DNA of 32,000 bases from positions 121,639 through 153,638 of the forward strand of contig JAKAHR010000002.1 in the NCBI GenBank assembly GCA_021825365.1, written 5' to 3'. The notes below the pieces were generated by a model. The model was not told where the DNA came from and did no database searches. It saw only the letters and a list, made by a program, of their open reading frames with translations. Positions 8,967 to 32,000 of this stretch are shown here, one piece after another; position 1 is the first letter of the stretch, and the number at the start of each line of letters is the position of its first letter. The DNA comes from Nitrospirota bacterium (GTDB lineage: Bacteria; Nitrospirota; Thermodesulfovibrionia; Thermodesulfovibrionales; UBA6898). The position numbers and the translations under genes are program-made.

Positions 8967-9740
8967 CTAAGCCGACTGTTTCCCCTTTTTCTGTTCGTAC
9001 ATCAGCCTGTCTCCCTCCGCCAGAAGTTCATCGATAGGGCGGGGACTCAACGGGTTGTACGAGACGATGCCGAAGCTGGCGTCGATGCTGCATATACGGT
9101 CTTTTTCTGCATTGTGGATCTCGAGGTTCCTGTTAAAGCGGGAGGTGATTACTTCTATGGTATCACCTTCCGTGCCGACGGGGATCGCGACGAACTCATC
9201 TCCCCCGATCCTGGCTATGATGTCCGATTCCCGGAAGGTCTCGTTCAGCACGGCAGCCATTTCCATCAGGGCAGCGTCTCCCTCCTGATGGCCGTAGGTG
9301 TCATTGATCGTCTTGAGATTGTCCAGGTCAGCATAGAACATAAAGATCCTCTTATGGGACCTGTTGGCCAGCTTGAATTGTTGATCAGCAAGTGTAAAGA
9401 AACCGCGGCGGTTATGGAGACCGGTCAGCTCGTCCCGCAGGGATAGCACGTGAAGCCGCTCCTCTATCCTCTTCCTCTCGTCAATTTCGTTGAGCAGGGC
9501 CGCCTCAGTACGTTTCTGTCTGGCAAAGCTTCTTGACATGATCATGCCGGTGACAAGAAAGCAAAGAGACGCAAGGAGGCGAAATGACACTTCTCTCTTA
9601 TTGAAGAGAAGGATTGTCAGGAACGGTTCGTCATAGTGGGCGAGGTAATCGACGGTCGCATCAAGCACCCAAAAACAAAGAGCTGCGACAAGGGAAAGCA
9701 GCACTACGTTCCGCGGCTTATTGATCATGGCTCCATGCAC
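8967..9740 (-). CDS. Membrane-anchored diguanylate cyclase (GGDEF domain)
   Basis: 257 aa with two N-terminal hydrophobic helices and a coiled linker. RIGGDEFV active site with an RESD I-site five residues upstream; LTGLHNRRGF motif. Confidence 0.9.
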   Translation of the reverse strand: MHGAMINKPRNVVLLSLVAALCFWVLDATVDYLAHYDEPFLTILLFNKREVSFRLLASLCFLVTGMIMSRSFARQKRTEAALLNEIDERKRIEERLHVLSLRDELTGLHNRRGFFTLADQQFKLANRSHKRIFMFYADLDNLKTINDTYGHQEGDAALMEMAAVLNETFRESDIIARIGGDEFVAIPVGTEGDTIEVITSRFNRNLEIHNAEKDRICSIDASFGIVSYNPLSPRPIDELLAEGDRLMYEQKKGKQSA

Positions 9741-9865
9741 ATGAAGTTATCTGCAGCCGAAGTCTGCGCGCCCGGCAGCCCCGGCGGCTGCGGTATTAAA
9801 TCACAATCCGCCTGTTCTTGGCAATACATTTCTAAGAAAGGAAATCTCTGGTGAGATTGCAGATC

Positions 9866-19982: not shown

Positions 19983-20528
19983 CTAGAGCTCTGACACCTC
20001 GCGAAGCACCTGAGGGTTTCGCGTGAGGACCCGCCTGCACGCCTTACAAAACTCCTTTGACTTGTGGTCCGTGTCGCTGAGGTTGTATGAGAAGAACATG
20101 ACACACTGCCGCTGGCTGCAGTGCGAGAGCCCAAGAAGGTGTCCGACCTCATGGACCGCAGTCTTGACAGCCCTTCCGATAACCCCTCTGCCGGCCGGCT
20201 TTCTCTCATCACCCTGGCCGAAGCGGGCTATGGAGATAATGGCAGCCGGATATTCACGATCAGCAAGACCGAATACATAATTCAGTCCTGGATACGAGAG
20301 ATCGACATCTGTAATCGCAACTGTCAGCCCCGGCCCTTTCGCCAACGAGCGGAGACATTTCAGCAGATGCGCCGCAAAGTATTGCCTGCCCGGAGACTCT
20401 TTCGCGAATCCCTCAATAGAGGCGGTCGGCGCCACGGTAACAGGGAAACCCAAGAGCGAACCCGTCTCCTCCGCAACCGTTGAAACAATATCGATATCGA
20501 TGTTCCCAAGAGGCACTACCCGTATCAT
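19983..20528 (-). CDS. amzA: Archaemetzincin-like zinc metallopeptidase (peptidase M54)
   Basis: HEVGHLLGLSHCSQRQCVM....CKAC fits the archaemetzincin signature HExxHxxGxxxCxxxxCxM...CxxC. Start set at ATG 20528 (MIRVVPLGN, GGAG just upstream) rather than track position 20627. Confidence 0.75.
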   Translation of the reverse strand: MIRVVPLGNIDIDIVSTVAEETGSLLGFPVTVAPTASIEGFAKESPGRQYFAAHLLKCLRSLAKGPGLTVAITDVDLSYPGLNYVFGLADREYPAAIISIARFGQGDERKPAGRGVIGRAVKTAVHEVGHLLGLSHCSQRQCVMFFSYNLSDTDHKSKEFCKACRRVLTRNPQVLREVSEL

Positions 20529-20644
20529 CGTCTCCGGGACGTCTCGCCTCATCATCGCCGTACCTGTGCTCACGAAATATGGAGAGGCAAATCCCGTGCC
20601 TGCCAAAAGGGGCCTTCCTCCCCCCATAGCCGCCTGACGTTATT

Positions 20645-20772: not shown

Positions 20773-21897
20773 ATGTATCCGGAGATTGTTCTTACCCATC
20801 TTCTGTTTGGCATCGGACTCGGCGTTGTCATGCATCGGTCGGATTTCTGCATGGCCGGGGCATTCCGCGATATCTTCATCACCCGCGATTTTTTCCGGAT
20901 GAGGGCTGTCATCCTCCTGGTTTCCGTGACCTCCGTACTGCTATACCTGGCCCGCACTGCCGGCCTCGTGGACTCTTACCCGCCATCCTTCTATTCCTCC
21001 CCCTCGCTCGCCCATCTTGCGGGAGGCGTCATCTTCGGCATCGGCATGGTCCTTGCTGGCGGTTGTGTTATGGGAACCCTCTATAAAGCGGGAGCTGGAA
21101 ACCTTGTCAGTCTGTGCGCCTTTTCAGGACTCCTTCTCGGCAGCCTGCTCTTCGCCTGGGCATATCCGCTGCACCGCTCCTTTGTCGAGGCGACTACCCT
21201 GCCCGGCGGATTTACCGCCATGGAACACCTGACCGGAGCCCCGGGGCTGTCCGCATTACTTATCGTCTCGATATCCATCCTGTACCTCTTCAGGGGAAAA
21301 GAGCGTCCTGCCTGGACGAGTAATGCCTTTGCCAGGGGTTATCTCGACCCCTGGAAGGCGGCGCTTATCGTCTGCGCGATCATCATCCTATCCTTTACCC
21401 TGACCGGCCGCCCTCTCGCGCTTACGTCAGGGTACTCAAGACTTGCCTCGTGTCTTGCAGAAAGGTTGCTGCCCGAAGCCGTCACCCTTCCCTCCGCCAG
21501 AAGCGACTCTGTTCGTCTCCTCTATGGGATGGCCATGGACCCGGAGAGCCTGTCAGGGACTGACCCTGTGGTGCTCACGCAGGTACCCCTGATCTTCGGA
21601 ATTGTCATCGGCGCCTTTCTTTCCGCCCTGAGGCTGGGGGAGATCACCGCCCGCCCGGCGCCTCCCCGAAGGCAGCTCCTTTCCGGTTTCGCTGGCGGCA
21701 TCCTCCTCGCATGCGGTTCTCTGATGGCAGGCGGCTGCAATGTCTGGCATATCATGGGAGGACTGCCGCTTTTCGTATTTCAGAGCGTCCTCTTCGTCTG
21801 CGGCATGGGGTTCGGCGCATATGTCGGAAGCCGCCTGCTGCTCACAACGGTCCTTCAAGTTGAGAGGTGTGCCCCACATGGAAACCATAGCTATTGA
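20773..21897 (+). CDS. yeeE: YeeE/YedE-family sulfur-compound transporter
   Basis: 374 aa, polytopic. The Cys-containing motifs of the sulphur-transport domain are HRSDFCMAGAFRDIF, GMVLAGGCVMGTLYKAG and GSLMAGGCNVWHIMGG. Confidence 0.85.
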   Translation: MYPEIVLTHLLFGIGLGVVMHRSDFCMAGAFRDIFITRDFFRMRAVILLVSVTSVLLYLARTAGLVDSYPPSFYSSPSLAHLAGGVIFGIGMVLAGGCVMGTLYKAGAGNLVSLCAFSGLLLGSLLFAWAYPLHRSFVEATTLPGGFTAMEHLTGAPGLSALLIVSISILYLFRGKERPAWTSNAFARGYLDPWKAALIVCAIIILSFTLTGRPLALTSGYSRLASCLAERLLPEAVTLPSARSDSVRLLYGMAMDPESLSGTDPVVLTQVPLIFGIVIGAFLSALRLGEITARPAPPRRQLLSGFAGGILLACGSLMAGGCNVWHIMGGLPLFVFQSVLFVCGMGFGAYVGSRLLLTTVLQVERCAPHGNHSY

Positions 21898-22117
21898 TAT
21901 CAGGGGGCAGATCTGCCCCGCCTGTCTGCTGATTACTCTACGGGAAATCAACACCCACAAGACGGTCCTGAGGGACGGCAAGGCGCGCCTCGTCATAAAA
22001 ACCGATCACCGCGACGCCACAAGGACAATACCCTCCACGGTCTGCGCCATGGGGTACGATATCAATGTTACAGGCCGGAAGGGTTACTACGAGATCACGA
22101 TCGGGTACCGGAAATGA
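21878..22117 (+). CDS. tusA: TusA/SirA-family sulfur carrier (variant CPAC motif)
   Basis: 79 aa from ATG 21878 (METIAIDIRGQICPACLL...). This is the D.RG..CP motif of the TusA fold. It overlaps the yeeE end by 20 nt and the kinase start by ATGA. Confidence 0.75.
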   Translation: METIAIDIRGQICPACLLITLREINTHKTVLRDGKARLVIKTDHRDATRTIPSTVCAMGYDINVTGRKGYYEITIGYRK

Positions 22118-23403
22118 GAAAGATCGCTCCCCTCCGTATCAACAATATCGATGAACTCCAGAAGAGCAATGAGACGCTGAAGCGTTACATCCGGGAAAAG
22201 GTGAACCAGTTGCTCTCGATGATGGGCACGAGGCCGCTTGATCCCGCCGAGCTTGACGACAGTACGCTGCTTGACATCGATCCGATCGGCATCATAGCCG
22301 ACGCCTTCGGCCAGGTCCTCGAACACCTCGAGGAGACTAACAGGAAATTGATCAACACCAAGGATCAGTTGCAGGCCGTCTTCGAGACCGCAGGGGTCTG
22401 CATCTCGATCGTCGACCCTGACCTCAGGATCATCAGCTGCAATGAGAAGCAGCGGGAATTGCTCGTCTCCGATCTCAACGAGAAGGAATTTGTCGGCCGC
22501 TATTGCTACGAGGTCTATTGCGGTAACGATTCTCCGGCCCTCTACTGTCCGGCGATCGAGACGATCGAGACAGGGAAACCGGTCTTCATCAGGGAAATCA
22601 AGAAGAAAGGCAGGTATTTCCAGATCGTCACCTCCCCCCTGAAAAACCGCGACGGCACCCTCAAAGGCGTCGTCGAGGTCTCGATCGACGTGACGGAAAA
22701 GAAGAGGGCTGAAGAGGGCATGCGGCAGGCCGAAAAATTGTCAGCCATCGGCCTGCTCGGAGCCGGCGTTGCCCATGAGATCAATACACCCCTTGGTAAT
22801 ATCCTCGGCTATGCCAAAATGCTGCTAAAGGAGCAGGACCTCAGCGACCACCATAAGGAAAAATTGCAGGTCATCGTCGAACAGGCGAAAAAGGGCAGCG
22901 AGATCATCAGGGGACTTCTCAATTTTTCCCGTCAGTCAAAGCCTTCCCTTGCCACCATTTCGATGAACGATATGGTCAACAAAGTGCTCCTGGAGCTTTC
23001 GACCCAAATCGAGCGACAGGGGATAACCACCAGAAAAAACCTCCGGCCGATACCCCTCGTCGAGGCTGACCCCCTGCAGATAGAGCAGGTGCTCAGCAAT
23101 CTGGTGCTGAATGCGCTCCACGCCCTTGCCCGGACCCCGGAGGGGACCATCATCGTTGAGACACAGCGTACCGGCGCCTTTGTGGAGACGCGGATTGTCG
23201 ATAACGGCCCCGGCATATCCGACACCCTGCTCCCCCTGATATTCGATCCCTTCTTCACGACCAAGCCCGTGGGCGAAGGAGTCGGCCTCGGCCTTTCCAT
23301 CTGCTCGGGAATCATCAGGGACCATGGCGGCACCATACAGGCGGAGTCCGACCCCCGGGGAAAGACGGTCTTTTCTTTCCTCCTGCCCGTCAGATCCCCA
23401 TGA
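22114..23403 (+). CDS. Soluble PAS-domain sensor histidine kinase (NtrB/AtoS type)
   Basis: 429 aa with no hydrophobic TM segment. Coiled N-terminus and a PAS-like region carrying five Cys (including RYCYEVYCGNDSPALYCP). H box AHEINTPLGNILGY; ATPase G boxes DNGPGI and GVGLGLSI. Confidence 0.9.
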   Translation: MRKIAPLRINNIDELQKSNETLKRYIREKVNQLLSMMGTRPLDPAELDDSTLLDIDPIGIIADAFGQVLEHLEETNRKLINTKDQLQAVFETAGVCISIVDPDLRIISCNEKQRELLVSDLNEKEFVGRYCYEVYCGNDSPALYCPAIETIETGKPVFIREIKKKGRYFQIVTSPLKNRDGTLKGVVEVSIDVTEKKRAEEGMRQAEKLSAIGLLGAGVAHEINTPLGNILGYAKMLLKEQDLSDHHKEKLQVIVEQAKKGSEIIRGLLNFSRQSKPSLATISMNDMVNKVLLELSTQIERQGITTRKNLRPIPLVEADPLQIEQVLSNLVLNALHALARTPEGTIIVETQRTGAFVETRIVDNGPGISDTLLPLIFDPFFTTKPVGEGVGLGLSICSGIIRDHGGTIQAESDPRGKTVFSFLLPVRSP

Positions 23404-24779
23404 CAAAAATTGATCTTTCTCCTGAGGCGACTCCGCTGGCCCATCTGCTTATCGTCGAAGACGACTACCGCATGAGACTTCTCATGAAGCAGCTTCTCGA
23501 AAAAGAGGGGTATGCCACAACGGTCACGGAAGACGGCCGGGATGCCGTATCCCTGATCAAGGAGCGCTTCTTTGATATCGTCCTCACTGACCTCAAGATG
23601 CCCCATCTTGACGGCATGGAGGTACTCAGCGTCTCCCGGGAAGTCAATCCGGACACCCCCGTAATCGTCACGACCGGATATGCAACCGTGGACTCGGCGG
23701 TTGAGGCGATGAAGAAGGGCGCCTATGATTACGTGCAGAAGCCGTTCGATCCCGACGAACTCCTCCTCGTCGTGAAGCGCGCCCTCGACTACCGAAGGCT
23801 GATCGACGAGAATATCCGGCTGTCGGTAGCCCTTGAGAGTTGCTCTGGAGAAGAATTCGTGGGAATGAGCAACGGGGCTGTCAAGACGCGAAAATTCGCG
23901 GAGAGAGTCGCGCCGTTTGATTCAACGGTATTGATCCAGGGCGAGACCGGCTCGGGCAAGGAACTTGTCGCACGGCTGATCCATCGGCTCAGCAGAAGGG
24001 CGTCTCATAAATTTCTCGCGGTAAACTGTGCCGCCCTGACAGAATCCCTCCTGGAGGCTGAACTCTTTGGCTATGAGAAGGGCGCCTTTACCGGTGCGAC
24101 CCAGATGAAACGGGGGCTTTTTGAGGCCTCGGACGGCGGCACGCTGTTCCTCGACGAGATCAACAACTCCTCGGCATCGATGCAGATGAAACTCCTCCGA
24201 GTACTGCAGGACGGCCGGATCATCCGGGTGGGAGGGGTCGAACCGATAGACATCAATGTCCGTGTCATCGCAGCCTCGAATGCTGACCTGAAGTCCGAGA
24301 GCGAAGAAGGACGATTCAGGAAGGACCTCTTCTACCGCATCAATGTGGTCATGATCGATATCCCCCCCCTGAGAGGCCGCCGCGACGATATCCCTCTCCT
24401 GGCGACTCATTTCCTGGACAAGTACTCCCGCAAGTTCGCGAAGGAAATTAAGGGCTTCAGTCCGGAGGTGATGAAGATCCTCGCTGACTATCCCTGGCCC
24501 GGCAATGTCCGCGAACTCGAGAATGCGATCGAGCACGCGGTCATCATGGCGAAATCGCAAAAAAGCATATCAGCCGAATCTCTCCCTGAAGAGGTCAGAA
24601 AGAAGAAGCAGGGTGCTCTACCCCCTCCTTTCGCGGCCGTTCGTCTCGATGAGGTCGAAAAATCACTCATAGAGCAGGCGATGCTCACCTTCAACGGCCA
24701 GAAGGCGAAGGCTGCAGAGGCCCTCGGCATCAGCTCTTCGACCCTCTGGAGGAAACTGAAAAAATACCGGCTTGAATGA
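23400..24779 (+). CDS. Sigma-54-dependent response regulator (NtrC family bEBP)
   Basis: 459 aa. Receiver domain (LLIVEDD...VLTDLKMP). AAA+ domain with GETGSGKE, the GAFTGA sigma-54 contact loop and DEIN Walker B. C-terminal Fis-type HTH (AAEALGISSSTLWRKLKKY). Confidence 0.95.
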   Translation: MTKIDLSPEATPLAHLLIVEDDYRMRLLMKQLLEKEGYATTVTEDGRDAVSLIKERFFDIVLTDLKMPHLDGMEVLSVSREVNPDTPVIVTTGYATVDSAVEAMKKGAYDYVQKPFDPDELLLVVKRALDYRRLIDENIRLSVALESCSGEEFVGMSNGAVKTRKFAERVAPFDSTVLIQGETGSGKELVARLIHRLSRRASHKFLAVNCAALTESLLEAELFGYEKGAFTGATQMKRGLFEASDGGTLFLDEINNSSASMQMKLLRVLQDGRIIRVGGVEPIDINVRVIAASNADLKSESEEGRFRKDLFYRINVVMIDIPPLRGRRDDIPLLATHFLDKYSRKFAKEIKGFSPEVMKILADYPWPGNVRELENAIEHAVIMAKSQKSISAESLPEEVRKKKQGALPPPFAAVRLDEVEKSLIEQAMLTFNGQKAKAAEALGISSSTLWRKLKKYRLE

Positions 24780-24783
24780 TCGT

Positions 24784-24820
24784 GCATTTCAAAATGACAA
24801 ACCAACTCATTTTGAAATGC
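24784..24820. promoter_or_regulatory. Upstream activator sequence candidate: 14-bp perfect inverted repeat
   Basis: GCATTTCAAAATGA-N9-TCATTTTGAAATGC starts 5 nt after the regulator stop. It lies about 165-200 nt upstream of the sigma-54 promoter, the usual bEBP enhancer distance. It is AT-rich and has no trailing T-tract, so it is unlikely to be a terminator. Confidence 0.6.
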
Positions 24821-24984: not shown

Positions 24985-25000
24985 TGGCACCCATCTTGCT
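24985..25000 (+). promoter_or_regulatory. Sigma-54 (-24/-12) promoter
   Basis: TGGCAC-CCATC-TTGCT is an exact match to TGGCAC-N5-TTGCW. It lies 75 nt upstream of the first ATG of the downstream operon and directly downstream of a sigma-54 activator gene. Confidence 0.85.
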
Positions 25001-25074
25001 CAATTACGAAAAGAACCATGCCCATCGCCTCCCTCAGGCGGCGATGGGCGAACTACCAAAGAAAGGAGAAGACA

Positions 25075-25254
25075 ATGTCGATAGAAGGAAAAGGCGGACT
25101 TACCTTGCCCTGGCTCTGGGTGGCTGTCGTGATCGCCTATCTCGCCTTTGGCTTCATGCTGCCCCCCTTCGATAGCCACCTGAAGGAGCTGGCAAAGGCC
25201 AAAGCTGCACCCGCGGCCGATCAGAGCGGGAAGGGCGACGAAATTGTCTTTTGA
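25075..25254 (+). CDS. Small single-pass membrane protein (59 aa), unknown family
   Basis: ATG 25075 is preceded by AAAGGAG (25061-25067). MSIEGKGGLTLPWLWVAVVIAYLAFGFMLPPF is one TM helix, followed by a charged and Ala-rich tail. First gene after the sigma-54 promoter. Confidence 0.6.
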   Translation: MSIEGKGGLTLPWLWVAVVIAYLAFGFMLPPFDSHLKELAKAKAAPAADQSGKGDEIVF

Positions 25255-25258
25255 CCGC

Positions 25259-25780
25259 ATGGTCGAGCCCCCCGCAAGAAGGCCCAGCCCCAGGGAAAAA
25301 CATCACGGGACTGCCCGGGTTTCCCCGGCGATACACCTTGTGCTCGCAGCTTTCCTCATCTTCCTGTGTGAAGGAAACCCCTGCGGAGAGGCGTCGGAAA
25401 AGAAAGGGAGCATATCCCCCGGGGGCGAGGTGCGGGAAATCCGGTGGACCCCCACGAGCGAGGGATTATCGGTAGAACGCATTGTAGCGCGGAAGAAGGT
25501 GGTGGTCCCTATCGAGGTCTCGCTCAACGGAAACATCGCAGAAGTAATCTTTATCATTCCTTCAAAATTCAAGGCCTTCGGCATCTCCATGGAACCACAG
25601 GTGGCCGAAGTGAAGAACGGCAAGGCACAAGCAGGGGTTGCGTTTTATATCCTGGAGGGGATGCCGCTCGGCAGGCACAATCTCATCATCGAAATCCTCG
25701 ATGGCCTGACCCGGACCAGGATAGGAAGCGCCACCATCCCCTTTATCCTCCTGCCGTCTGATCTCGAATGTCTTTGCTGA
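25259..25780 (+). CDS. Secreted protein of unknown family, paralogue A, ends in ..LLPSDLECLC
   Basis: ATG 25259 lies 4 nt after the previous stop (the track uses TTG 25244). Basic N-region, then a hydrophobic helix AIHLVLAAFLIFL (signal or anchor). The C-terminal 67 aa align without gaps to the next gene product (23 identities counted by eye). Confidence 0.7.
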   Translation: MVEPPARRPSPREKHHGTARVSPAIHLVLAAFLIFLCEGNPCGEASEKKGSISPGGEVREIRWTPTSEGLSVERIVARKKVVVPIEVSLNGNIAEVIFIIPSKFKAFGISMEPQVAEVKNGKAQAGVAFYILEGMPLGRHNLIIEILDGLTRTRIGSATIPFILLPSDLECLC

Positions 25781-25824
25781 TTGGATCTGCTCTATAAAAA
25801 GGAGAAAGGAAGGTATATACAACC

Positions 25825-26304
25825 GTGAAGAAAATAGGAACTCTTATGGGAGCCGCTATCCTGGCTTCCTTTCTGCTCGCCGGCGTACCATTGATTACTA
25901 CTCATAACAGCAGCGACGGTGCGGTGAAGACCGCCGAGGCGGCTGAGGCACCCTCCACAGACTTCGCGTGGCACCCCAACAGACCGGGGATCAAGCGGGC
26001 GCAGATAGCCCTCGGCAGGGCCTCTACACTTCGCTTCGAGTTCTCCCTCAAGGGAAAAAACGGCACACAGGTGAAATTCGGCTTGCCGAAAAAATATGTG
26101 ACCATGGGCATCAGGATCGACCCCCATGAAGTCCCGGTCAGCGAGGGAAAGGCATCGTCCAAGGCGGTGCTCACCGTGCCACCCGGAATGCCCCTCGGAA
26201 AGTTCGATATCCCCGTGATCGCGGTAGACGCGAAAACAGGAACAGAGCTCGGCAGGGGCGAGATCCCGATCATGCTGCTGCCTGCCGGAGTGGGCGGGTG
26301 TTAA
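25825..26304 (+). CDS. Secreted protein of unknown family, paralogue B, ends in ..LLPAGVGGC (SoxY-like C-terminal Cys tail)
   Basis: GTG 25825 follows an AAAAGGAGAAAGGAAGG SD region. Sec-type signal MKKIGTLMGAAILASFLLAGVPL. It shares the motifs LPKKY, GI.I.P, GKA, GMPLG and IP.(I/M)LLP with paralogue A. Confidence 0.75.
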   Translation: MKKIGTLMGAAILASFLLAGVPLITTHNSSDGAVKTAEAAEAPSTDFAWHPNRPGIKRAQIALGRASTLRFEFSLKGKNGTQVKFGLPKKYVTMGIRIDPHEVPVSEGKASSKAVLTVPPGMPLGKFDIPVIAVDAKTGTELGRGEIPIMLLPAGVGGC

Positions 26305-26331: not shown

Positions 26332-27732
26332 ATGGATGACTACGGAGTGCGAGGCTGGTGGGATGCGTGGTACAGGAAATTCTTCAAAGAAAAATGGCCG
26401 CTCTCAATGGCGGCGGTATTCATGGCACTTTCCGGGATAATTGCCTACGGCGTCGCGGTATGGTCCCTGGCCAGGACGGTGGCGGGAAGTAACCCGTACG
26501 ATCAGGCCAAACCGCTCGGCACCTTCCTCGGATTGAAGGAACTCGGCGGTATCATCAACGGCCTTCTGGGCAAGATCGGGCTCCCTCATTACCCCTTTGC
26601 CGGATATACGTGGCCTGATGGCGTGACGATCAACTTCTTCCAGCAATATCCAAATCCCTTGCTCGAACCGACGGCCGGCACGATGCTCGGCATACTCTTC
26701 GGAGGCCTTATCGCCGCCCTCCTGGCGAAGGAGTTCGCCCTGAAGGTACCCTTCGACAGGACCGAGTACAGCCTGGCGGTCGTCGGAGGCATCCTGATGG
26801 GGGTAGGCGCGGTCTTTCAGTTCGGCTGCCCCGTGGTGAGCACCACCAACCTGGGGGCCATGGGCGTACAGGCGATCATCATGGTCATCGGCATGACGAT
26901 CGGCTCCTATTTCGGAGCAAAAATCATCGTCTGGCTCGAAAAAAGAAGGGTTGCGGCGATCGCCTGCGCAGCGGACGGGGCCGGCTACCGGCCGCTGATG
27001 CTTTTTGAAAAGACAAAGACAGTCTGGCCCCGCCTGCCTGACCGGGCCGACGGCGGCGAACCGGCCGGCCTCAGGTATCAGCCGTATCTGGCCGCCTTGC
27101 TTCTGGGGGCGATGGTGCTCATCCTCCTCCGTTTTGCGGGCCTGGGCTACCCTGCTCTTTCGCTCTCCTTTGCCGCAGCCACCCTCACCGGCTTTGCGAT
27201 GCAAAGGGGAGGGATCTGTTTCGCCTACGCATACCGCGAACCGTTTCTCTCGGGATTTTCAGATATGTCGCGGGCGATGGCATTGCTCTACATCCTGCTG
27301 GTGCTCGGCTTCCTGCCGATGAAGCTGCTGGCGACTGCGAATCCTGATCTTGCGTATGCGGAGATTTTCGCGATTAGCCCCGCCGGCATCGGCGTCCTGC
27401 TCGGTTCAATTCTCTTCGGCATCGGCATGGCGCTCAACGGAGCGTGTGTCAGTGACAGCCTCTGGAGGACTGCAGAAGGACAGGTAAAGATCTGGGTGGG
27501 GCTGCTCACCCTCATCTGCGTGTCGTCCTGGATCTTTCCGATGCGCGAGGAGGCATGGTTCAAGAGTATCTTCGCGCCCTATGGCTCGCAGAACATCCGC
27601 GACGTATACCTGCCGGAGATCCTGGGCGGATATCCTGCAGCAGTCGCCTTTGTCATCGGCGTGGTAATTTGCTGGGCCCTGCTGATGACATGGTTCAGCG
27701 GCAGGACTTTCAGAAAATACATGGAGGAATAG
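26332..27732 (+). CDS. Divergent, enlarged YeeE/YedE-like membrane protein
   Basis: 466 aa, polytopic. YeeE-type Cys motifs are recognisable but diverged: GVGAVFQFGCPVVSTTNLG, QRGGICFAYAYREPF, GIGMALNGACVSDSLWRTAEG. It has an extra N-terminal segment and a long hydrophilic loop between the two halves. Confidence 0.7.
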   Translation: MDDYGVRGWWDAWYRKFFKEKWPLSMAAVFMALSGIIAYGVAVWSLARTVAGSNPYDQAKPLGTFLGLKELGGIINGLLGKIGLPHYPFAGYTWPDGVTINFFQQYPNPLLEPTAGTMLGILFGGLIAALLAKEFALKVPFDRTEYSLAVVGGILMGVGAVFQFGCPVVSTTNLGAMGVQAIIMVIGMTIGSYFGAKIIVWLEKRRVAAIACAADGAGYRPLMLFEKTKTVWPRLPDRADGGEPAGLRYQPYLAALLLGAMVLILLRFAGLGYPALSLSFAAATLTGFAMQRGGICFAYAYREPFLSGFSDMSRAMALLYILLVLGFLPMKLLATANPDLAYAEIFAISPAGIGVLLGSILFGIGMALNGACVSDSLWRTAEGQVKIWVGLLTLICVSSWIFPMREEAWFKSIFAPYGSQNIRDVYLPEILGGYPAAVAFVIGVVICWALLMTWFSGRTFRKYMEE

Positions 27733-27816: not shown

Positions 27817-28053
27817 ATGGCAACGGAAAGCCATATCGACAGGGAGCTGGATGTGAAGGGGCTCGTCTGTCCAAGGCCAATGGTGATGAGCATGAGTGCG
27901 CTGAAAGCGATGTCACCGGGGCAGGTGTTGAAGATCACGGCGAATGACAGCAGCACGAAACATTCCATTCCGGCCTTGTGCGAACGGGCAGGGTACAAAC
28001 TCGTCGAGCAGACGGAGGAGATGGGAGCTTTCATCTTCATCATCCAGAAATAA
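27817..28053 (+). CDS. tusA: TusA/SirA-family sulfur carrier (canonical CPxP motif)
   Basis: 78 aa. LDVKGLVCPRPMVMSMSALK is the TusA active-site motif. SD AAAGGAGG upstream (27803-27810). Confidence 0.85.
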   Translation: MATESHIDRELDVKGLVCPRPMVMSMSALKAMSPGQVLKITANDSSTKHSIPALCERAGYKLVEQTEEMGAFIFIIQK

Positions 28054-28106: not shown

Positions 28107-29411
28107 ATGCGAAAGAGGCTATTGGAAACAAATAGGGCAAGCCTGGTACTGCTGGCGATCGCCCTGTCACTGATCTCTTTTTCCCTGATTCTCCACGGAT
28201 GTGGAGGAGGCGGCTACGATGCCCCTGCCACAACCCAGACCGTGTCGGCCCTGGTCTCGCCCGAGACCCTCAAGGGCTGGATCGACAACGGGAGCGTAAA
28301 CGGCACGGGATACGACAAGGTCGTCATCCTCGACGTCAATTCCCAGGCAAACTACTCAGCCGGGCATATACCCGGCGCCCAGTTTCTCGATAGCGCGGAC
28401 ATTTATCAGACGAGAAACGAAGGCATCGCCGCTGACGTCAACATGGTCCTTGACGGCAGTCACATGGACGCATTGATCCACAAATACGGCATAGATCGCA
28501 ATACAACGATCGTTTTTACAAGCGGCAACAATGATCCCAAGACAACGCCGTCGTCCATGCTCTCTGCCACCAGGGCCTATTGGACCTTCCGGTACTGGGG
28601 CTTTCCCAAGGAGAGACTCAAGGTAGCCGACGGCATCAACCCCGCATGGTCCGCCGTGTTCGGACTGACTACCGCCCCCTCGCCGGCGATCATCCCCTCC
28701 ACGTACAGCGTAAAGAGCAACGGGCTTCTGCGGAGCGAAGTAAGGGCATCTCTGGCCGAGATGATCAGCCTCGTTGACAGCGGAACTCCCAACGCGCTGA
28801 TCATAGACGGCAGGGGATCAGGCGGCTCGTTTGCAGGCACCCCAGGGTCGACCGCAGGCGTCTTCCCCCCGACCGGAGATTTTGTCGCCTTTGAAGGAAG
28901 GATCAAAGGGGCAAAGGCATTGGGATATACAACGCTCTTTGATTCCGGCAACGGCAACCGCTTCCTCCCGCCGGACCAGCTCGCCGCGAAATTTGCCGCG
29001 ATCGGGCTCGACAGCTCCAAGACCGCCTATGTCCACTGCCGCACCGGCGTCATCGCCTCTGCCCTGTATTTTGCACTCGATGGAATCCTCAACTGGCCAG
29101 CGTCCAACTATGATGCATCCTGGAGCCAGTGGGGGCAGCTTGCAGGAGACCCAACTGACGGCAAACAGATTGACCCGAATTCCCCCTGGAGAACCGACAT
29201 CCCCTCCCGGTCGGAGCTCGTCGTCTACAATGGGGCAAACGGCAAGACCGTCGAGAAGCTCTGTCTGGACGGTTCCGCCGCCACCTGCGCCACGCCGGCG
29301 TCGTTCGATACGGATGCGAACAAGATCGAGGAAGAAGACGCCGCGTATATGAACAGCGGCGGCTCAGCCGGCGGTTCCGGAGGCGGAGGAGGAGGCAAGA
29401 CAGGATGCTAG
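28107..29411 (+). CDS. Tandem-rhodanese (thiosulfate/polysulfide sulfurtransferase-like) lipoprotein with Gly-rich C-terminal tail ending in Cys
   Basis: 434 aa. Signal peptide with lipobox LHG-C (Cys32). The first rhodanese domain lacks the catalytic Cys (VFTSGNND). The second has the active-site loop YVHCRTGVIAS (Cys311, nt 29037-29039). The tail is SGGSAGGSGGGGGGKTGC-stop. Confidence 0.8.
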   Translation: MRKRLLETNRASLVLLAIALSLISFSLILHGCGGGGYDAPATTQTVSALVSPETLKGWIDNGSVNGTGYDKVVILDVNSQANYSAGHIPGAQFLDSADIYQTRNEGIAADVNMVLDGSHMDALIHKYGIDRNTTIVFTSGNNDPKTTPSSMLSATRAYWTFRYWGFPKERLKVADGINPAWSAVFGLTTAPSPAIIPSTYSVKSNGLLRSEVRASLAEMISLVDSGTPNALIIDGRGSGGSFAGTPGSTAGVFPPTGDFVAFEGRIKGAKALGYTTLFDSGNGNRFLPPDQLAAKFAAIGLDSSKTAYVHCRTGVIASALYFALDGILNWPASNYDASWSQWGQLAGDPTDGKQIDPNSPWRTDIPSRSELVVYNGANGKTVEKLCLDGSAATCATPASFDTDANKIEEEDAAYMNSGGSAGGSGGGGGGKTGC

Positions 29412-29467
29412 GGAGCAATGATGCGGAAAGAGCAGAGAACCATTCCATCGTCAAGGAGGAGAATAGC

Positions 29468-30664
29468 ATGATGAGAATTCTAAAATGGGCGTTGCTCCTG
29501 ATGCTTCCGGTTGCCGTCTTCTGCATGGGAGAGCGGGACGCCCTCGCCTTTCAGCCTATCGTGTTTGGTGAAGAAGGGGCCTTTTTGAAAATCGATTATC
29601 AGGGCCAGCTTTACGGCGTGGTGCGTGACACAGGGTCCGGTCCGGACAAGACAGCGGATACGACTGACCTGTTCTTCAGAAGGAACCGTCTGACCTTCTG
29701 GGGACACGGCACCGACAAATACGGGTTTATCGTCCAGCTTGAATATACCGGGGAGAGGAGAGTCGACTCGCTCATCGTCAACGATCAGCCCGGCAAGGAC
29801 TTCAACGTCCTTGACGCCTATTTCATGGCGGACTTTTCGAACAGTTTCCGGGTCTATGCGGGAAAGCAGAAGATACAGCTGACGAGGGAAAACCTCGAAG
29901 ATTGTTTCGAGCCCCTCAGCGTCGACCGTTCCCTCTTCATCTATACGCCGTTCAAGCACAGCAGGGACACCGGACTGGTCGTCTGGGGAAACATCCCCGA
30001 GTTGCTGATGCAATACCGGCTGGCGGTCTCGAAAGGGAAAGATAATGGCGATGAGCCCAAGAGCTCCCTCATGTACACCGGCCGCGTACACGTCTCCCTC
30101 CTGGATCCGGAATACGCATACGGGTACAAGGGGACATATCTCGGGACCAAAAAGACGCTGACCGTGGGCGCAGGCGTTCAGTACGAGCCGGACGCGGTAT
30201 TCAGCGATATCGTCAACAAGACCGGGGGCAAGAACTACTCCGCCTGGACCGTTGATGCCTTTTTCGAATATCCGTTCAAGAATGCCGGTGCCATCACCCT
30301 GTCGGGGGCTTATCTGCAAACGAAATTCGACGAGGCCTTCAAGGGGAACAACCCTGATCCGGAGAGTCTCGGCATCGACGGAGACAAGAAAGGCTGGTAT
30401 CTGAAGGCAGGCTACCTCCTGCCCATGAAGATCGGGTGGGGGCAGGTCCAGCCCTTTGTCCGTTACGAGGACTGGAGTTTCGCCCAGCTGAACAATGTCT
30501 TTGACCAGAAGGTGAAGTGGTTCGGGGCAGGGCTCAACTATCTGATCAACGGACAGAGCCTCAGGATTACCCTCGAATACGCGAAGACGAATTTCGACAA
30601 GGAGCCGAATCCGCAGTCAAAGGATTTCAGCACGGTCACCGCGATGCTGCAGTATCGGTTCTGA
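29468..30664 (+). CDS. Outer-membrane beta-barrel porin, OprO/OprP-like (anion-selective porin family)
   Basis: Start at ATG 29468 (AAGGAGGAG SD). Signal MMRILKWALLLMLPVAVFC..ALA-F. FFRRNRLTFWG motif as in phosphate-selective porins. Alternating beta-strand pattern, with C-terminal ..MLQYRF (terminal Phe). Confidence 0.7.
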   Translation: MMRILKWALLLMLPVAVFCMGERDALAFQPIVFGEEGAFLKIDYQGQLYGVVRDTGSGPDKTADTTDLFFRRNRLTFWGHGTDKYGFIVQLEYTGERRVDSLIVNDQPGKDFNVLDAYFMADFSNSFRVYAGKQKIQLTRENLEDCFEPLSVDRSLFIYTPFKHSRDTGLVVWGNIPELLMQYRLAVSKGKDNGDEPKSSLMYTGRVHVSLLDPEYAYGYKGTYLGTKKTLTVGAGVQYEPDAVFSDIVNKTGGKNYSAWTVDAFFEYPFKNAGAITLSGAYLQTKFDEAFKGNNPDPESLGIDGDKKGWYLKAGYLLPMKIGWGQVQPFVRYEDWSFAQLNNVFDQKVKWFGAGLNYLINGQSLRITLEYAKTNFDKEPNPQSKDFSTVTAMLQYRF

Positions 30665-30695: not shown

Positions 30696-30741
30696 GGTCA
30701 TATGGAGGTAATCATCACCTCCATATGACCCTCTTTTTTTG
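30696..30741 (+). terminator. Rho-independent terminator of the sigma-54 operon
   Basis: GGTCATATGGAGGT-AATCATC-ACCTCCATATGACC is a perfect 14-bp stem followed by CTCTTTTTTTG. It starts 32 nt after the porin stop. Confidence 0.9.
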
Positions 30742-30876: not shown

Positions 30877-31266
30877 ATGGGAAACCATAGAGATGAAAGG
30901 GACAAGTCGTTTTATCCGGATTATCTGAGTGAAATCCTTGCAGCGATATTTCTAACGATCTTCACCGTTTTTATCCTCGCCATGGTATATGCGCCATCCA
31001 TTGACAGAGAGATCAACTATGTGTCTGCCTACCACCCGAAACCGGAATGGTACTTTCTCTGGATCTATCAGCTCATCAGGTATTTCCCGGGGGGTTGGGC
31101 CTTCGTCGGGACCGTGCTGATTCCGATTGTTGCAGCAGCTCTTTTCATCGGCATACCCTTTGTCGACCGCGGGACCGTGCGTTCCGGAAGGGCCGCCTCC
31201 TTTTTGTTTGCCCTGCTCTCCGTGTTCTTTCTCGTCCTGACCGTGGTGCCGCTTCTGTGGCCCTGA
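30877..31266 (+). CDS. Cytochrome b C-terminal-domain protein (b6f subunit IV / PetD-like)
   Basis: 129 aa with three TM helices and the KPEWYFLWIYQLIRYFPG motif (the PEWYFL signature of the cytochrome b C-terminal domain). Confidence 0.75.
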   Translation: MGNHRDERDKSFYPDYLSEILAAIFLTIFTVFILAMVYAPSIDREINYVSAYHPKPEWYFLWIYQLIRYFPGGWAFVGTVLIPIVAAALFIGIPFVDRGTVRSGRAASFLFALLSVFFLVLTVVPLLWP

Positions 31267-31283
31267 CAGACGACGTCTTTCCC

Positions 31284-31733
31284 ATGGACAGCAGAAGAGA
31301 TTTCCTGAGGCGTTTCGTGAAATCCGGCTTCGGACTGCTCGCCTTCCTCTTCGGAGCGACATTGCTCAGATTCCTCTATCCGTCACAGGTCCGTACGCGT
31401 CAGCTGCTCTACCATCCCCTGCTCAAGGAAGATGATATCCCGAGGCAGGGTGTCAGAAGGGTCCACCTGACATACGACAAAGGGGAGAAGACAATCACGA
31501 TGCGCCTTTTTCTCGTACATGCAGGGGCCGACATATTCGCGCTTTCCTCCTCCTGCACGCACCTCGGATGTCTGGTGGACTGGTCCCGCCACAAGGAACA
31601 GTTCGTCTGCCCCTGCCATGGCGGGAAATATGATATGCAGGGCAACGTCATGGCCGGTCCGCCTCCTCTCGCCCTTGCGCGGATGCCGTTGAAGATCGAA
31701 AACGGGGTAGTCTACATAGGGATTAAGGAGTAG
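31284..31733 (+). CDS. Rieske [2Fe-2S] subunit with Tat signal
   Basis: Start at ATG 31284 (MDSRRDFLRRFVKSGFGLLAF; the track ORF begins upstream at 31047). Cluster boxes CTHLGC and CPCHGG. Confidence 0.9.
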   Translation: MDSRRDFLRRFVKSGFGLLAFLFGATLLRFLYPSQVRTRQLLYHPLLKEDDIPRQGVRRVHLTYDKGEKTITMRLFLVHAGADIFALSSSCTHLGCLVDWSRHKEQFVCPCHGGKYDMQGNVMAGPPPLALARMPLKIENGVVYIGIKE

Positions 31734-31746
31734 ATTCATGGGAAGA

Positions 31747-32000
31747 CTATTCGACTGGGTCGACAGGCGTTTCAGCCTCAGCACGCCTCACAAGAACTTT
31801 CTGCAGAGGGGCATCCCCGCCCGACTGAGTTATCTCTATTGTCTCGGAGGCATAGCCTTCACCCTGGTTATTTTGCTTGTGCTCACCGGGATGATGCTGA
31901 GCATATACTATGTGCCCTCGGAGGCCGAGGCATTTCAGAGCGTGCTCAGGATAACCCGTGAAGTAAGGCTCGGCGCGCTCATCCGCGGGTTGCACAAGTG
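31747..32000 (+). CDS. Cytochrome b / b6 N-terminal domain protein (partial, runs off the right edge)
   Basis: Absent from the track because no stop lies in the window. ATG 31747 follows AAGGAG. MGRLFDWVDRRFSL...LSYLYCLGGIAFTLVILLVLTGMMLSIYYVPS....RGLHK is a typical cytochrome b N-terminus. Confidence 0.85.

What the first reader, a model, noticed from the sequence alone, without database searches (positions are those of the whole stretch)
25259..26304. Tandem paralogous secreted proteins of unrecognised family with a conserved IP-x-x-LLP strand followed by a short tail ending in Cys (SoxY-like GGC)
Seen: the C-terminal 67 residues of the two products align without gaps, IPSKFKAFGISMEPQ...GMPLGRHNL...IPFILLP against LPKKYVTMGIRIDPH...GMPLGKFDI...IPIMLLP, with 23 identities by my count. 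Both then end 6-7 residues later in Cys (SDLECLC and AGVGGC). Both have N-terminal export signals, and their alternating hydrophobic pattern suggests a small beta-sandwich. Established: SoxY is a small Ig-like beta-sandwich whose C-terminal GGCGG peptide carries sulfur on its Cys. Inference: these are functional analogues, or very remote homologues, of SoxY acting as periplasmic sulfur carriers. The duplication recalls the SoxY/SoxZ heterodimer. I cannot place them in any family by eye.
Basis: partly seen in the sequence, partly recalled or inferred. Interest (0 to 1): 0.82.

Follow-up and report, generated by a model that had tools for sequence, protein, structure and literature searches.

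The report
Cysteine-tailed periplasmic sulfur carriers, new family
Two neighbouring genes encode small exported beta-sandwich proteins of an unnamed family whose only invariant residue is a cysteine at the tip of the C-terminal tail, and their operon (porin, rhodanese, YeeE channel, TusA) suggests they pass sulfur across the periplasm, as SoxY does in sulfur oxidisers.

Summary
They end in ...LLPSDLECLC and ...LLPAGVGGC.

B's tail MLLPAGVGGC is invariant in 39 homologues, and that Cys is B's only cysteine. Across 43 superfamily members (24% mean identity) the single invariant column is this Cys. AlphaFold models (pLDDT 82 and 85) give an Ig-like sandwich with a low-confidence tail. No Pfam, NCBIfam or PDB sequence match was found, and SoxY/SoxZ were not detected by sequence or fold. 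The relation to SoxY is therefore analogy, not demonstrable homology.

Context is the main evidence. A sigma-54 promoter (24985) drives small TM protein, A, B, a Cys-lined YeeE channel, TusA, an ExtH rhodanese lipoprotein (Gly-rich tail ending in Cys) and an ExtI porin, up to a strong terminator (30696). The order is conserved in about 12 Nitrospirota MAG loci. Distant B-type proteins recur in rhodanese-B-YeeE-TusA modules.

Best reading (about 0.55): periplasmic Cys-persulfide carriers in a sulfane-sulfur import relay. The SoxYZ-like heterodimer idea is weak, because A is often absent. The family is uncharacterised and unannotated.

The parts
19983..20627 (-). M54 (archaemetzincin-like) metallopeptidase gene, divergent from the regulatory module. 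In most related loci the same gene sits between the response regulator and the small TM gene.
   Evidence: Pfam PF07998, E 1e-19; sequence; M54 genes in L001, L007, L009, L011-L014, L016, L024 and L025.
20773..21897 (+). First YeeE/YedE-type sulfur transporter (374 aa), encoded with the regulators. It may import the signal.
   Evidence: Pfam Sulf_transp, E 1.5e-47; syntenic in 11 loci.
21881..22117 (+). First TusA-like sulfurtransferase (about 78 aa). The longer 125-aa ORF that starts at 21740 overlaps the transporter gene.
   Evidence: Pfam TusA, E 2.4e-10; conserved.
22114..23403 (+). PAS histidine kinase with no hydrophobic segment visible, so probably cytoplasmic. The PAS region is Cys-rich.
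   Evidence: Pfam PAS, HisKA and HATPase_c; sequence.
23400..24779 (+). NtrC-type sigma-54-dependent response regulator.
   Evidence: Pfam Response_reg, Sigma54_activat and HTH_8.
24784..24820 (+). Perfect 14-bp palindrome GCATTTCAAAATGA-N9-TCATTTTGAAATGC. It is probably the enhancer (UAS) bound by the response regulator.
   Evidence: Unique in the window, with 0 matches in 100 shuffles. The half-site recurs just after the regulator gene in L005, L006, L007, L011, L014 and L025. Its function is inferred.
24985..25000 (+). Sigma-54 promoter TGGCAC-N5-TTGCT (-24/-12).
   Evidence: The only zero-mismatch match in the window. Equivalent sites lie upstream of the operon in L006, L007, L009, L011, L012 and L014.
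25020..25049 (+). Stem-loop in the 5' UTR: GCCCATCGCC, a 10-nt loop, then GGCGATGGGC.
   Evidence: Read directly from the sequence. Function unknown; no Rfam match.
25075..25254 (+). Conserved 59-aa protein with a single transmembrane helix (GLTLPWLWVAV.IAYLA.GFMLPP...(I/L)VF). It may be an accessory subunit of the YeeE channel.
   Evidence: Orthologues of 54-62 aa sit immediately upstream of A/B in all loci that carry the second YeeE gene. The gene is absent in L006, which also lacks that YeeE. No Pfam hit.
25259..25780 (+). Paralogue A (173 aa): exported Ig-like sandwich ending ...IPFILLPSDLECLC (CxC type).
25825..26304 (+). Paralogue B (159 aa): exported Ig-like sandwich whose only cysteine is the C-terminal residue (...IPIMLLPAGVGGC).
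26332..27732 (+). Second YeeE-type channel (466 aa). Its two halves are swapped relative to the crystallised Spirochaeta thermophila YeeE, and it has an N-terminal extension. The three channel cysteines are retained (C166, C296, C372).
   Evidence: Pfam Sulf_transp, E 4.4e-34. It scores below the NCBIfam TsuA and YedE cut-offs. Alignment to 6leo; Cys positions.
27817..28053 (+). TusA sulfurtransferase with a CPxP motif (VCPRP).
   Evidence: Pfam TusA, E 3.4e-21; sequence.
28107..29411 (+). ExtH-type tandem rhodanese and probable lipoprotein (..LHGC-GGGG). The catalytic loop is CRTGVIA. The C-terminal Gly/Ser-rich tail ends ...GGGGGGKTGC.
   Evidence: NCBIfam NF040901 ExtH, 317 bits against a cut-off of 200. 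The tail ending in Cys is conserved in all syntenic loci and in 84 of the 120 best ExtH homologues.
29405..30664 (+). ExtI-type outer-membrane porin (OprO/P-like).
   Evidence: NCBIfam NF040900 ExtI, 483 bits against a cut-off of 150; Pfam Porin_O_P.
30696..30740 (+). Intrinsic terminator with a 14-bp stem and a T-run; it marks the end of the operon.

Best explanation
A and B are periplasmic cysteine-based carriers of sulfane sulfur. They belong to a new, small family that works like SoxY without detectable relationship to it.

Proposed mechanism, with the status of each step:
1. Polysulfide or thiosulfate enters through the ExtI-type anion porin. This is inferred from family membership.
2. 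The ExtH-type rhodanese lipoprotein takes sulfane sulfur onto its catalytic Cys (loop CRTGVIA; the residue is Sec in some orthologues) and possibly onto its own flexible Gly-rich tail Cys. This is inferred.
3. The sulfur passes as a persulfide or polysulfide to the terminal thiol of B. That thiol sits on a 6-7-residue arm (PAGVGGC-COOH) leaving the last strand of an Ig-like sandwich. The anatomy is shown; the chemistry is inferred.
4. B presents the sulfur to the periplasmic mouth of the adjacent YeeE-type channel, which keeps the three channel cysteines. This is inferred. It matches the SoxY to SoxT1A idea proposed for Hyphomicrobium.
5. Cytoplasmic TusA accepts the sulfur and hands it on. 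In some loci a possible DsrEFH-like trio follows. This is inferred.

A, with its vicinal CxC, is an optional helper. It may be a second carrier holding a bridging sulfur, or a thiol that resolves or releases sulfur from B.

The operon is switched on from a sigma-54 promoter by the adjacent PAS kinase and NtrC-type regulator. These are encoded together with a second YeeE-TusA pair that may import the inducing signal.
For: 1. Conservation points at the tail thiol.
- MLLPAGVGGC is invariant in 39 B homologues that are 50-92% identical to the window protein.
- B has a single Cys, and it is the last residue.
- In a 43-sequence superfamily alignment with 24% mean identity, the only invariant column is this Cys.
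- 36 of 45 small representatives end in Cys. Four more carry CxC plus an extension. Four of the remaining five look like fragments or frameshifts, and the fifth (P0071) ends VPAGGD without a Cys.

2. Anatomy. AlphaFold2 gives confident Ig-like sandwiches (pLDDT 81.6 and 85.3) whose last strand runs into a lower-confidence tail.

3. Operon.
- A unique sigma-54 promoter and a strong terminator bracket the small TM gene, A, B, YeeE, TusA, ExtH and ExtI.
- The same order is found in about 12 species-level loci.

4. Independent architectures link distant GC-type members to the same partners.
- Secreted rhodanese-B-YeeE(-TusA) in L018 and L022.
- Rhodanese-TusA-B-YeeE in L024.
- Kinase, regulator, rhodanese, M54 peptidase, three small genes, a 54-aa gene, B, YeeE, TusA in L025.
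- B followed by a periplasmic rhodanese in L001 and L004.
- A-B-ExtH-ExtI in L006.

5. The partner proteins look competent.
- The rhodanese loop is CRTGVIA, and a third terminal 'GC' arm sits on ExtH in every syntenic locus.
- The YeeE retains the counterparts of C22, C91 and C293 of the crystallised Spirochaeta thermophila YeeE.
- TusA has a CPxP motif.

6. Literature.
- Li et al. [quoted passage not shown] They propose that this is the SoxYZ-bound sulfane sulfur, with TusA as the likely acceptor, and consider passage from the SoxY Cys along the channel cysteines conceivable. A second SoxT serves signalling (PMC11582611).
- The Geobacter ext cluster, which contains extH and extI, encodes the polysulfide reductase MccSep, which is essential for S0 respiration. 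That paper states that the route of polysulfide into the periplasm and the possible sulfur-transfer components remain unknown (PMC13510729).
Against: - There is no biochemical evidence for any member of the family.
- No homology to SoxY or any other known carrier was detected.
- The more distant CxC subgroup ending -CSC, and two GC-type members (L020, L026), are stand-alone genes with no sulfur context. The terminal Cys may therefore serve a more general chemistry.
- In one clade A's CxC is not terminal.
- It is not resolved whether B is released into the periplasm or stays anchored by its N-terminal helix.
- The NCBIfam names for ExtH and ExtI, and the top-scoring but sub-threshold YedE model for the YeeE protein, point to selenium.
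- Crystallised YeeE transports thiosulfate as a free ion, so a protein donor is not required.
Confidence: 0.55

Rival explanations
1. The proteins traffic selenium rather than sulfur. The same relay would take up selenite, and A/B would carry selenium as a selenotrisulfide (A's CxC) or perselenide. This would supply selenoprotein synthesis or detoxify selenite and tellurite.
For: - NCBIfam equivalogues name the two downstream genes as the 'selenite/tellurite reduction operon' proteins ExtH and ExtI, and both score above cut-off.
- The best NCBIfam hit for the YeeE protein is the selenium-linked YedE/FdhT model, though it scores far below cut-off.
- The Geobacter ExtI mutant is impaired in selenite and tellurite reduction (PMC5877670).
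- These lineages use Sec, even in ExtH itself.
Against: - The 'selenite' names come from one Geobacter phenotype. The cluster's cytochrome ExtKL is now shown to be a polysulfide reductase essential for S0 respiration (PMC13510729).
- Related loci carry extra rhodaneses, several YeeE-TusA pairs and possible DsrEFH-like trios, which fits dissimilatory sulfur flux rather than a trace element.
- A Sec in a catalytic loop indicates catalysis, not selenium transport.
Confidence: 0.12
2. The proteins are thiol-redox helpers or metal(loid) chaperones. The terminal Cys or CxC would reduce or isomerise (poly)sulfide bonds on other proteins, as a CxC disulfide-isomerase mimic does. Alternatively it would bind a soft metal such as Cu, Hg or As, or FeS precursors in sulfidic periplasm.
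For: - A and the -CSC subgroup carry a vicinal CxC.
- One -CSC gene follows a FUR-family regulator.
- Many distant members have no sulfur-gene context.
- Li et al. 2024 propose that thiol-disulfide oxidoreductases (SoxS, DsbA) release sulfur from SoxY (PMC11582611).
Against: - B, the universally present paralogue, has only one Cys. It cannot cycle through an intramolecular disulfide or chelate a metal alone.
- The operon contains no metal transporter or metal-sensing regulator.
Confidence: 0.1
3. The Cys is a covalent tether. The C-terminal Cys would form a disulfide or other covalent link that fixes the sandwich domain to a partner, such as the ExtH tail Cys, the porin or the envelope. A and B would then be structural or scaffolding subunits of a porin-rhodanese complex rather than carriers.
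For: - Three proteins in the operon end in Cys, and two of them end in 'GC'.
- ExtH localisation in Geobacter depends on ExtI, according to the title of Jahan et al. 2019 as cited in PMC13510729.
- The Ig-like fold is typical of scaffolding domains.
Against: - Minimal modules have B with a small secreted rhodanese and YeeE but no ExtH or ExtI.
- These organisms live in reducing, sulfidic conditions that disfavour stable structural disulfides. This point is an inference.
Confidence: 0.08

Closest known systems
SoxY of the SoxYZ carrier (Sox thiosulfate-oxidising system; Pfam PF13501)
   Same: Both are small exported Ig-like beta-sandwiches. Both carry a conserved Cys on a Gly-rich C-terminal arm that leaves the last strand. 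Both are encoded next to a YeeE-type transporter and TusA; in Hyphomicrobium the equivalent transporter is SoxT1A.
   Different: - No sequence or fold-level relationship was detected.
- In B the Cys is the very last residue (GVGGC-COOH), whereas SoxY ends GGCGG.
- There is no SoxZ-type partner without a Cys; the paralogue A has its own CxC and is often absent.
- No SoxAX or SoxB is present. The likely loader is a rhodanese, and the hosts are anaerobic Nitrospirota.
DsrC / TusE (cytoplasmic carriers with a C-terminal arm)
   Same: A flexible C-terminal arm carries the reactive cysteines. The two-Cys arrangement of DsrC can hold a bridging sulfur as a trisulfide, which is a possible model for A's CxC.
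   Different: DsrC and TusE have a different, helical fold and are cytoplasmic. Their Cys spacing is CX10C, and the last Cys is penultimate rather than terminal.
Sud, the periplasmic polysulfide-sulfur transferase of Wolinella succinogenes (recalled from my own knowledge, not checked here)
   Same: It is a periplasmic protein that binds polysulfide sulfur on a Cys and delivers it to a membrane partner in an anaerobe.
   Different: Sud is itself a rhodanese-fold protein and serves polysulfide reductase. It is not a sandwich carrier serving a YeeE channel.
ExtH-ExtI of Geobacter sulfurreducens (rhodanese lipoprotein plus porin of the ext/MccSep cluster)
   Same: The two downstream genes of the operon pass the NCBIfam equivalogue cut-offs for ExtH and ExtI. 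The Gly-rich tail ending in Cys is widespread in the ExtH family, including in a Geobacteraceae MAG.
   Different: In the published Geobacter cluster extHI are followed by extJ and then cytochrome genes (PMC5877670). No Geobacter member of the A/B family was identified in the searches, and no ExtJ model was seen to match A or B. Here ExtH and ExtI are fused into an uptake operon with YeeE and TusA.
TsuA/TsuB (YeeE/YeeD) thiosulfate uptake system
   Same: It pairs a Cys-lined Sulf_transp channel with a TusA-like cytoplasmic acceptor.
   Different: The window's channel has swapped halves and an N-terminal extension, and it scores below the TsuA and YedE equivalogue cut-offs. It is also accompanied by periplasmic Cys-tailed proteins and a 59-aa transmembrane protein.

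Membership tests
SoxY (PF13501) / SoxZ (PF08770) | Significant match to the family HMM or to solved SoxY/SoxZ sequences | tested here: not met
   No Pfam hit for A or B at E<=0.1. None for any of 23 family members at E<=10. The profile search against all PDB sequences gave nothing better than E 0.12, and those hits were unrelated proteins.
SoxY (PF13501) / SoxZ (PF08770) | Ig-like beta-sandwich fold specifically superposable on SoxY/SoxZ | tested here: inconclusive
SoxY (PF13501) / SoxZ (PF08770) | Invariant carrier Cys on a Gly-rich C-terminal arm (GGCGG) | tested here: met
   B ends in GVGGC-COOH, invariant in 39 of 39 homologues. The Cys is the only invariant column of the superfamily. The motif differs in detail: the Cys is the terminal residue.
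SoxY (PF13501) / SoxZ (PF08770) | Obligate heterodimer with a partner that lacks a Cys (SoxZ) | tested here: not met
   A carries its own CxC. A is absent from L004, L007/L008, L018, L022, L024 and L025. Physical dimerisation could not be modelled, because no multimer prediction was available.
SoxY (PF13501) / SoxZ (PF08770) | Encoded with SoxAX and SoxB, the loading and hydrolysing enzymes | tested here: not met
   The operon content is fully accounted for between promoter and terminator and contains neither. The same holds for the syntenic loci.
SoxY (PF13501) / SoxZ (PF08770) | Covalent binding of sulfur species on the Cys | not testable with these tools
   This needs mass spectrometry of purified protein.
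ExtH (NCBIfam NF040901) for the gene at 28107-29411 | Score above the curated equivalogue cut-off | tested here: met
   317.2 bits against a cut-off of 200, covering model positions 5-430 of 430. The catalytic loop is CRTGVIA.
ExtI (NCBIfam NF040900) for the gene at 29405-30664 | Score above the curated equivalogue cut-off | tested here: met
   483.1 bits against a cut-off of 150.
YeeE/TsuA or YedE transporter equivalogues for the gene at 26332-27732 | Score above the NCBIfam cut-offs; Sulf_transp domain; three channel cysteines | tested here: inconclusive
   The Pfam Sulf_transp domain is clearly present (E 4.4e-34) and the three Cys are retained. All NCBIfam equivalogue scores are far below cut-off, for example 91.6 against 350. 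It is a family member but a distinct subfamily with swapped halves.
YTD-cluster 'conserved hypothetical proteins' / DsrEFH type II | Small cytoplasmic DsrE-fold proteins encoded after yeeE-tusA | tested here: not met
   A and B have export signals and an all-beta Ig-like fold. A separate trio of 100, 88 and 56-aa ORFs in L001, L024 and L025 may be DsrEFH-like, but the only support is a weak DsrE hit at E 0.088.
CARDB / NEW3 (NPCBM_assoc) domains | Match to the Pfam models | tested here: not met
   None at E<=10 for 23 members. Weak profile hits to giant Ig-repeat proteins (Big_1, GEVED, NPCBM_assoc) show only a generic Ig-like resemblance.

The most novel reading that the evidence does not exclude
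The operon may encode a complete, Sox-independent thiol relay across the whole cell envelope. Up to three flexible terminal-Cys arms would be involved: the ExtH Gly-rich tail (possibly reaching into or through the ExtI porin), B, and A. They would hand zero-valent sulfur from outside the cell or the outer membrane to a Cys-lined YeeE channel and then to TusA. This would be the missing first step by which anaerobic sulfur disproportionators, reducers and oxidisers in Nitrospirota, and by extension Desulfobacterota with ExtHI, acquire insoluble S0 or polysulfide. A second YeeE-TusA pair would feed the signal to a Cys-rich PAS kinase.
Probability: 0.3. Interest if true: 0.88.

Novelty: new variant of a known kind. 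Interest (0 to 1): 0.76.

Why it matters
How sulfur species cross the envelope of anaerobic sulfur-cycling bacteria is an acknowledged gap.
- The MccSep paper states that the route of polysulfide into the periplasm, and any periplasmic sulfur-transfer components, are unknown (PMC13510729).
- Proteomic work on disproportionators says the outer-membrane sulfurtransferases or porins are still to be identified (PMC13490349).
- The SoxT paper could only propose how carrier-bound sulfur reaches YeeE-type channels (PMC11582611).

This family provides a concrete, testable candidate. It is small (about 120 residues when mature), has a single Cys, is easy to express, and is encoded directly beside its presumed loader (a rhodanese) and its presumed receiver (YeeE).

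If confirmed, it would show that the SoxY solution, a beta-sandwich with a thiol on a swinging arm, arose independently in anaerobes. It would also give annotators a marker for a sulfur-uptake module that is currently labelled 'hypothetical protein'.

Tried and rejected
- **Homology to SoxY/SoxZ, CARDB or NEW3.** Tested by Pfam, a PDB sequence profile and Foldseek. None was found.
- **ExtJ.** I asked whether A or B is the small protein of the Geobacter ext cluster. NCBIfam gave no hit for A and only a sub-threshold Phr_nterm match (E 0.061) for B. No Geobacter member was identified in the exhaustive profile search, whose hits carry no organism names. Rejected.
- **The 'conserved hypothetical proteins' of the YTD cluster.** These are now identified as DsrEFH type II (PMC13293266), which are cytoplasmic DsrE-fold proteins. 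A and B are exported all-beta proteins. Rejected.
- **Lipoprotein status of A.** Only some homologues have a lipobox-like LxGC and the window protein has LIFLC, so this is not consistent.
- **The downstream petD-like, Rieske and cytochrome b genes as part of the unit.** Rejected, because a strong terminator separates them and they are not syntenic in L009.
- **Context of the -CSC subgroup.** Five look-ups found nothing consistent.
- **Literature.** Searches for any description of the family found nothing.
Full report
**1.
Two + strand ORFs sit at 25259-25780 (A, 173 aa) and 25825-26304 (B, 159 aa). BLASTP extends the match to 109 residues at 31% identity, E 2e-17.

Both proteins start with a hydrophobic helix followed by a disordered linker. 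AlphaFold2 models built from family alignments are confident: mean pLDDT 81.6 for B and 85.3 for A, with core values above 90. Both show the same 8-9-strand Ig-like sandwich. The last strand (IPxxLLP) runs into a tail of lower confidence. B homologues keep an A-x-A motif at about residues 39-41. This fits signal-peptidase cleavage, but I could not test cleavage against membrane anchoring.

**2. An unrecognised, small family defined by its tail cysteine.**
- Pfam gave no hit for A or B. NCBIfam gave none for A and only a sub-threshold Phr_nterm match (E 0.061) for B. No Pfam family recurs across 23 members even at E<=10, and SoxY, SoxZ, CARDB and NEW3 are all absent. A family profile finds no relative among PDB sequences.
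- Foldseek returns only generic Ig-like domains in its top 50, with TM below 0.5 and no SoxY or SoxZ.
- An exhaustive HMMER search of 1.84 billion cluster representatives finds only 54 proteins at E<=1e-3.
- Every source name seen is 'hypothetical protein', and I found no paper on the family.
- In 39 B-type homologues that are 50-92% identical to the window protein, the ten C-terminal residues MLLPAGVGGC are invariant. That Cys is B's only cysteine.
- A-type proteins end in [ED]C[LM]C. A third, more distant subgroup ends in xCSC.
- In a 43-sequence alignment of all subgroups, with 24% mean identity, the only invariant column is this cysteine.
- Of 45 small representatives, 36 end in Cys and 4 have CxC plus an extension. 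Of the other 5, four look like fragments or frameshifts, and P0071 ends VPAGGD without a Cys.

**3. The transcription unit.**
A perfect sigma-54 promoter, TGGCACCCATCTTGCT, lies at 24985-25000. It is the only zero-mismatch site in the window. About 190 bp upstream is a unique 14-bp palindrome at 24784-24820. Its half-site recurs just after the regulator gene in six other loci, so it is probably the activator's enhancer.

The unit ends at a 14-bp-stem terminator at 30696-30740. Between promoter and terminator lie seven genes:
- a conserved 59-aa single-TM protein (25075-25254);
- A and B;
- a 466-aa Sulf_transp (YeeE-type) channel;
- TusA, with a CPxP motif;
- an ExtH-type tandem rhodanese lipoprotein (NCBIfam, 317 bits against a cut-off of 200);
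- an ExtI-type porin (483 bits against a cut-off of 150).

Upstream are a second YeeE, a second TusA, a soluble PAS histidine kinase and an NtrC-type sigma-54 activator.

The channel aligns to the crystallised Spirochaeta thermophila YeeE with its two halves swapped. It keeps the counterparts of all three channel cysteines (C296 matches C22, C372 matches C91, C166 matches C293).

The rhodanese has the loop CRTGVIA. Like B, it ends in a flexible Gly-rich tail terminating in 'GC' (GGGGGGKTGC). This holds in every syntenic locus and in 84 of the 120 closest ExtH homologues, including one from a Geobacteraceae MAG.

**4. Conservation of context.**
A scan of GTDB species genomes gave 14 loci, almost all Nitrospirota MAGs, including Candidatus Sulfobium. 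tblastn shows the order YeeE-TusA-kinase-regulator-[M54 peptidase]-small TM-(A)-B-YeeE-TusA-ExtH-ExtI in about 11 of them.

More telling are the independent architectures around distant GC-type members, which are 24-30% identical to the window proteins:
- secreted single-domain rhodanese, B, YeeE, TusA in L018 and L022;
- rhodanese, TusA, B, YeeE, three small ORFs in L024;
- kinase, regulator, rhodanese, M54, three small ORFs, a 54-aa ORF, B, YeeE, TusA in L025;
- an extra periplasmic rhodanese directly after B in L001 and L004;
- A-B-ExtH-ExtI without the second YeeE in L006, where the small TM gene is also missing.

B therefore travels with a rhodanese on one side and a YeeE channel on the other.

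The exceptions are two GC-type genes (L020, L026) and all five -CSC genes examined. These stand alone.

**5. Mechanism.**
The best-supported reading is a periplasmic Cys-persulfide carrier. Sulfane sulfur from polysulfide or thiosulfate would enter through the porin and be taken up by the rhodanese. It would be transferred to B's terminal thiol, presented to the Cys-lined YeeE channel, and accepted by TusA in the cytoplasm.

What is shown:
- the anatomy;
- the conservation of the thiol;
- the operon boundaries;
- the recurrent gene neighbourhood;
- the presence of catalytic and relay cysteines in the partners.

What is inferred: every chemical step.

The model mirrors two published situations.
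- In Hyphomicrobium, SoxT1A (YeeE-like) was shown to deliver sulfur to the cytoplasm for oxidation. [quoted passage not shown] A second SoxT serves signalling (PMC11582611). The window's two YeeE-TusA pairs, one encoded with the regulators, fit that pattern.
- In Geobacter, the ext cluster that contains extH and extI encodes MccSep, a polysulfide reductase essential for S0 respiration. Its family is concentrated in Desulfobacterota and Thermodesulfovibrionia. That paper explicitly leaves open the entry route of polysulfide and possible periplasmic sulfur-transfer components (PMC13510729).

**6.
Remote homology to SoxY is not detectable. The SoxY/SoxZ-pair analogy is also weak:
- A is absent from several otherwise identical operons and from all minimal modules;
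- A has its own CxC;
- in the Sulfobium-like clade A's CxC is followed by 20-27 further residues.

I read A as an optional second carrier or resolving thiol.

**7. Rivals.**
- Selenium trafficking, suggested by the ExtH, ExtI and YedE names and the Geobacter selenite phenotype.
- A thiol-redox or metal-chaperone role, suggested by the CxC, one FUR neighbour and the stand-alone distant members.
- A covalent-tether or scaffold role for the Cys.

None is excluded. Each is less consistent than the carrier model with a single-Cys B placed between a rhodanese and a YeeE gene in several independent architectures.

**8. Verdict.**
This is a real, conserved and unannotated family. It is most likely a convergent functional analogue of SoxY, working inside a previously undescribed sigma-54-controlled sulfur-uptake operon of Nitrospirota. 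The kind of mechanism, a protein thiol on a swinging arm, is known. The family and the system architecture are new. No experiment has tested the function.

Noticed in passing
L006:11448-11450 (orthologue of window 28107-29411); also L001:13968-14948: In L006 the catalytic Cys codon of the ExtH-type rhodanese is TGA (..AYVY-TGA-RTGVIAS..). The frame stays open to the Gly-rich ...HVGC end, and a stem-loop starts 4 nt after the TGA, so this is probably a selenocysteine active site. About 16 of the 120 closest ExtH gene calls stop exactly before this position (..AYVH / ..HVY). The window's own gene has TGC.
   Followed up: partly
window 29340-29411 and ExtH homologues P0122-P0241: A Gly/Ser-rich C-terminal tail ending in 'GC' is a general feature of the ExtH family: 84 of the 120 best homologues have it, including one from a Geobacteraceae MAG. 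A minority end in ...PGY or lack the tail. I did not see this described in the ExtH passages I read, and it may matter for the Geobacter S0-respiration system.
   Followed up: partly
window 25075-25254: A 59-aa single-TM protein (GLTLPWLWVAV.IAYLA.GFMLPP..., ending (I/L)VF) is conserved immediately upstream of A/B in all loci that carry the second YeeE gene. It is absent where that YeeE is absent (L006). A 56-aa TM protein of unknown function is also reported in the Hyphomicrobium soxT/sHdr gene region (PMC11582611).
   Followed up: partly
window 26332-27732: The YeeE-type channel has its two homologous halves in the opposite order to the crystallised Spirochaeta thermophila YeeE (residues 284-393 match 10-112, and 77-194 match 200-322). 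It also has an extra N-terminal TM segment and loop. It scores far below all NCBIfam TsuA and YedE cut-offs, so it is a distinct subfamily.
   Followed up: partly
window 24784-24820, 24985-25000, 25020-25049: A perfect palindrome (probable enhancer), a perfect sigma-54 promoter, and a 10-bp-stem hairpin in the 5' UTR precede the operon. The palindrome half-site is conserved in six other loci.
   Followed up: partly
window 19983-20627 (-) and L001, L007, L009, L011-L014, L016, L024, L025: An M54 (archaemetzincin-like) metallopeptidase gene is persistently linked to this cluster. It usually sits between the regulator and the small TM gene; in the window it is divergent from the first YeeE gene. 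Its role is unknown. It has no obvious signal peptide.
   Followed up: no
L001:11521-12286; L024:1203-1998 and 9190-9969; L025:4464-5239: Trios of small ORFs (about 100, 90 and 56 aa) lie next to YeeE/TusA in related loci. The first gives a weak full-length DsrE/DsrF hit (E 0.088). They may be DsrEFH type II, which would link the imported sulfur to DsrC. The window itself has no such trio in the operon.
   Followed up: partly
window 30877-32000: After the terminator come a PetD-like subunit IV gene (30877-31266), a Tat-signal Rieske protein (about 31281-31733) and the start of a cytochrome b (31735 onwards). These recall ExtO and ExtP of the Geobacter ext cluster. They are not conserved next to the operon in L009, but L024 has a Rieske, cytochrome b and multihaem set nearby.
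   Followed up: partly
window 22114-23403: The PAS domain of the apparently soluble histidine kinase is unusually Cys-rich (..CYEVYCGNDSPALYCP..). It could sense sulfane sulfur delivered by the co-encoded YeeE-TusA pair.
   Followed up: no
L017, L019, L021, L027, L028 (proteins P0091-P0117): A distant subgroup of the family ends in [KNGR]CSC-COOH. Its genes stand alone in unrelated contexts; one follows a FUR-family regulator. Its function may differ from that of the GC-type proteins.
   Followed up: partly
L005, L009, L011, L012, L014, L016 (A orthologues): In the Candidatus Sulfobium-like clade the A-type protein continues for 20-27 residues after the ECMC/ACMC motif, so the CxC is not terminal there. 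Whether the extension is removed is unknown.
   Followed up: no
window 2043-2115: A tRNA gene, the only Rfam match in the window (69.5 bits).
   Followed up: no
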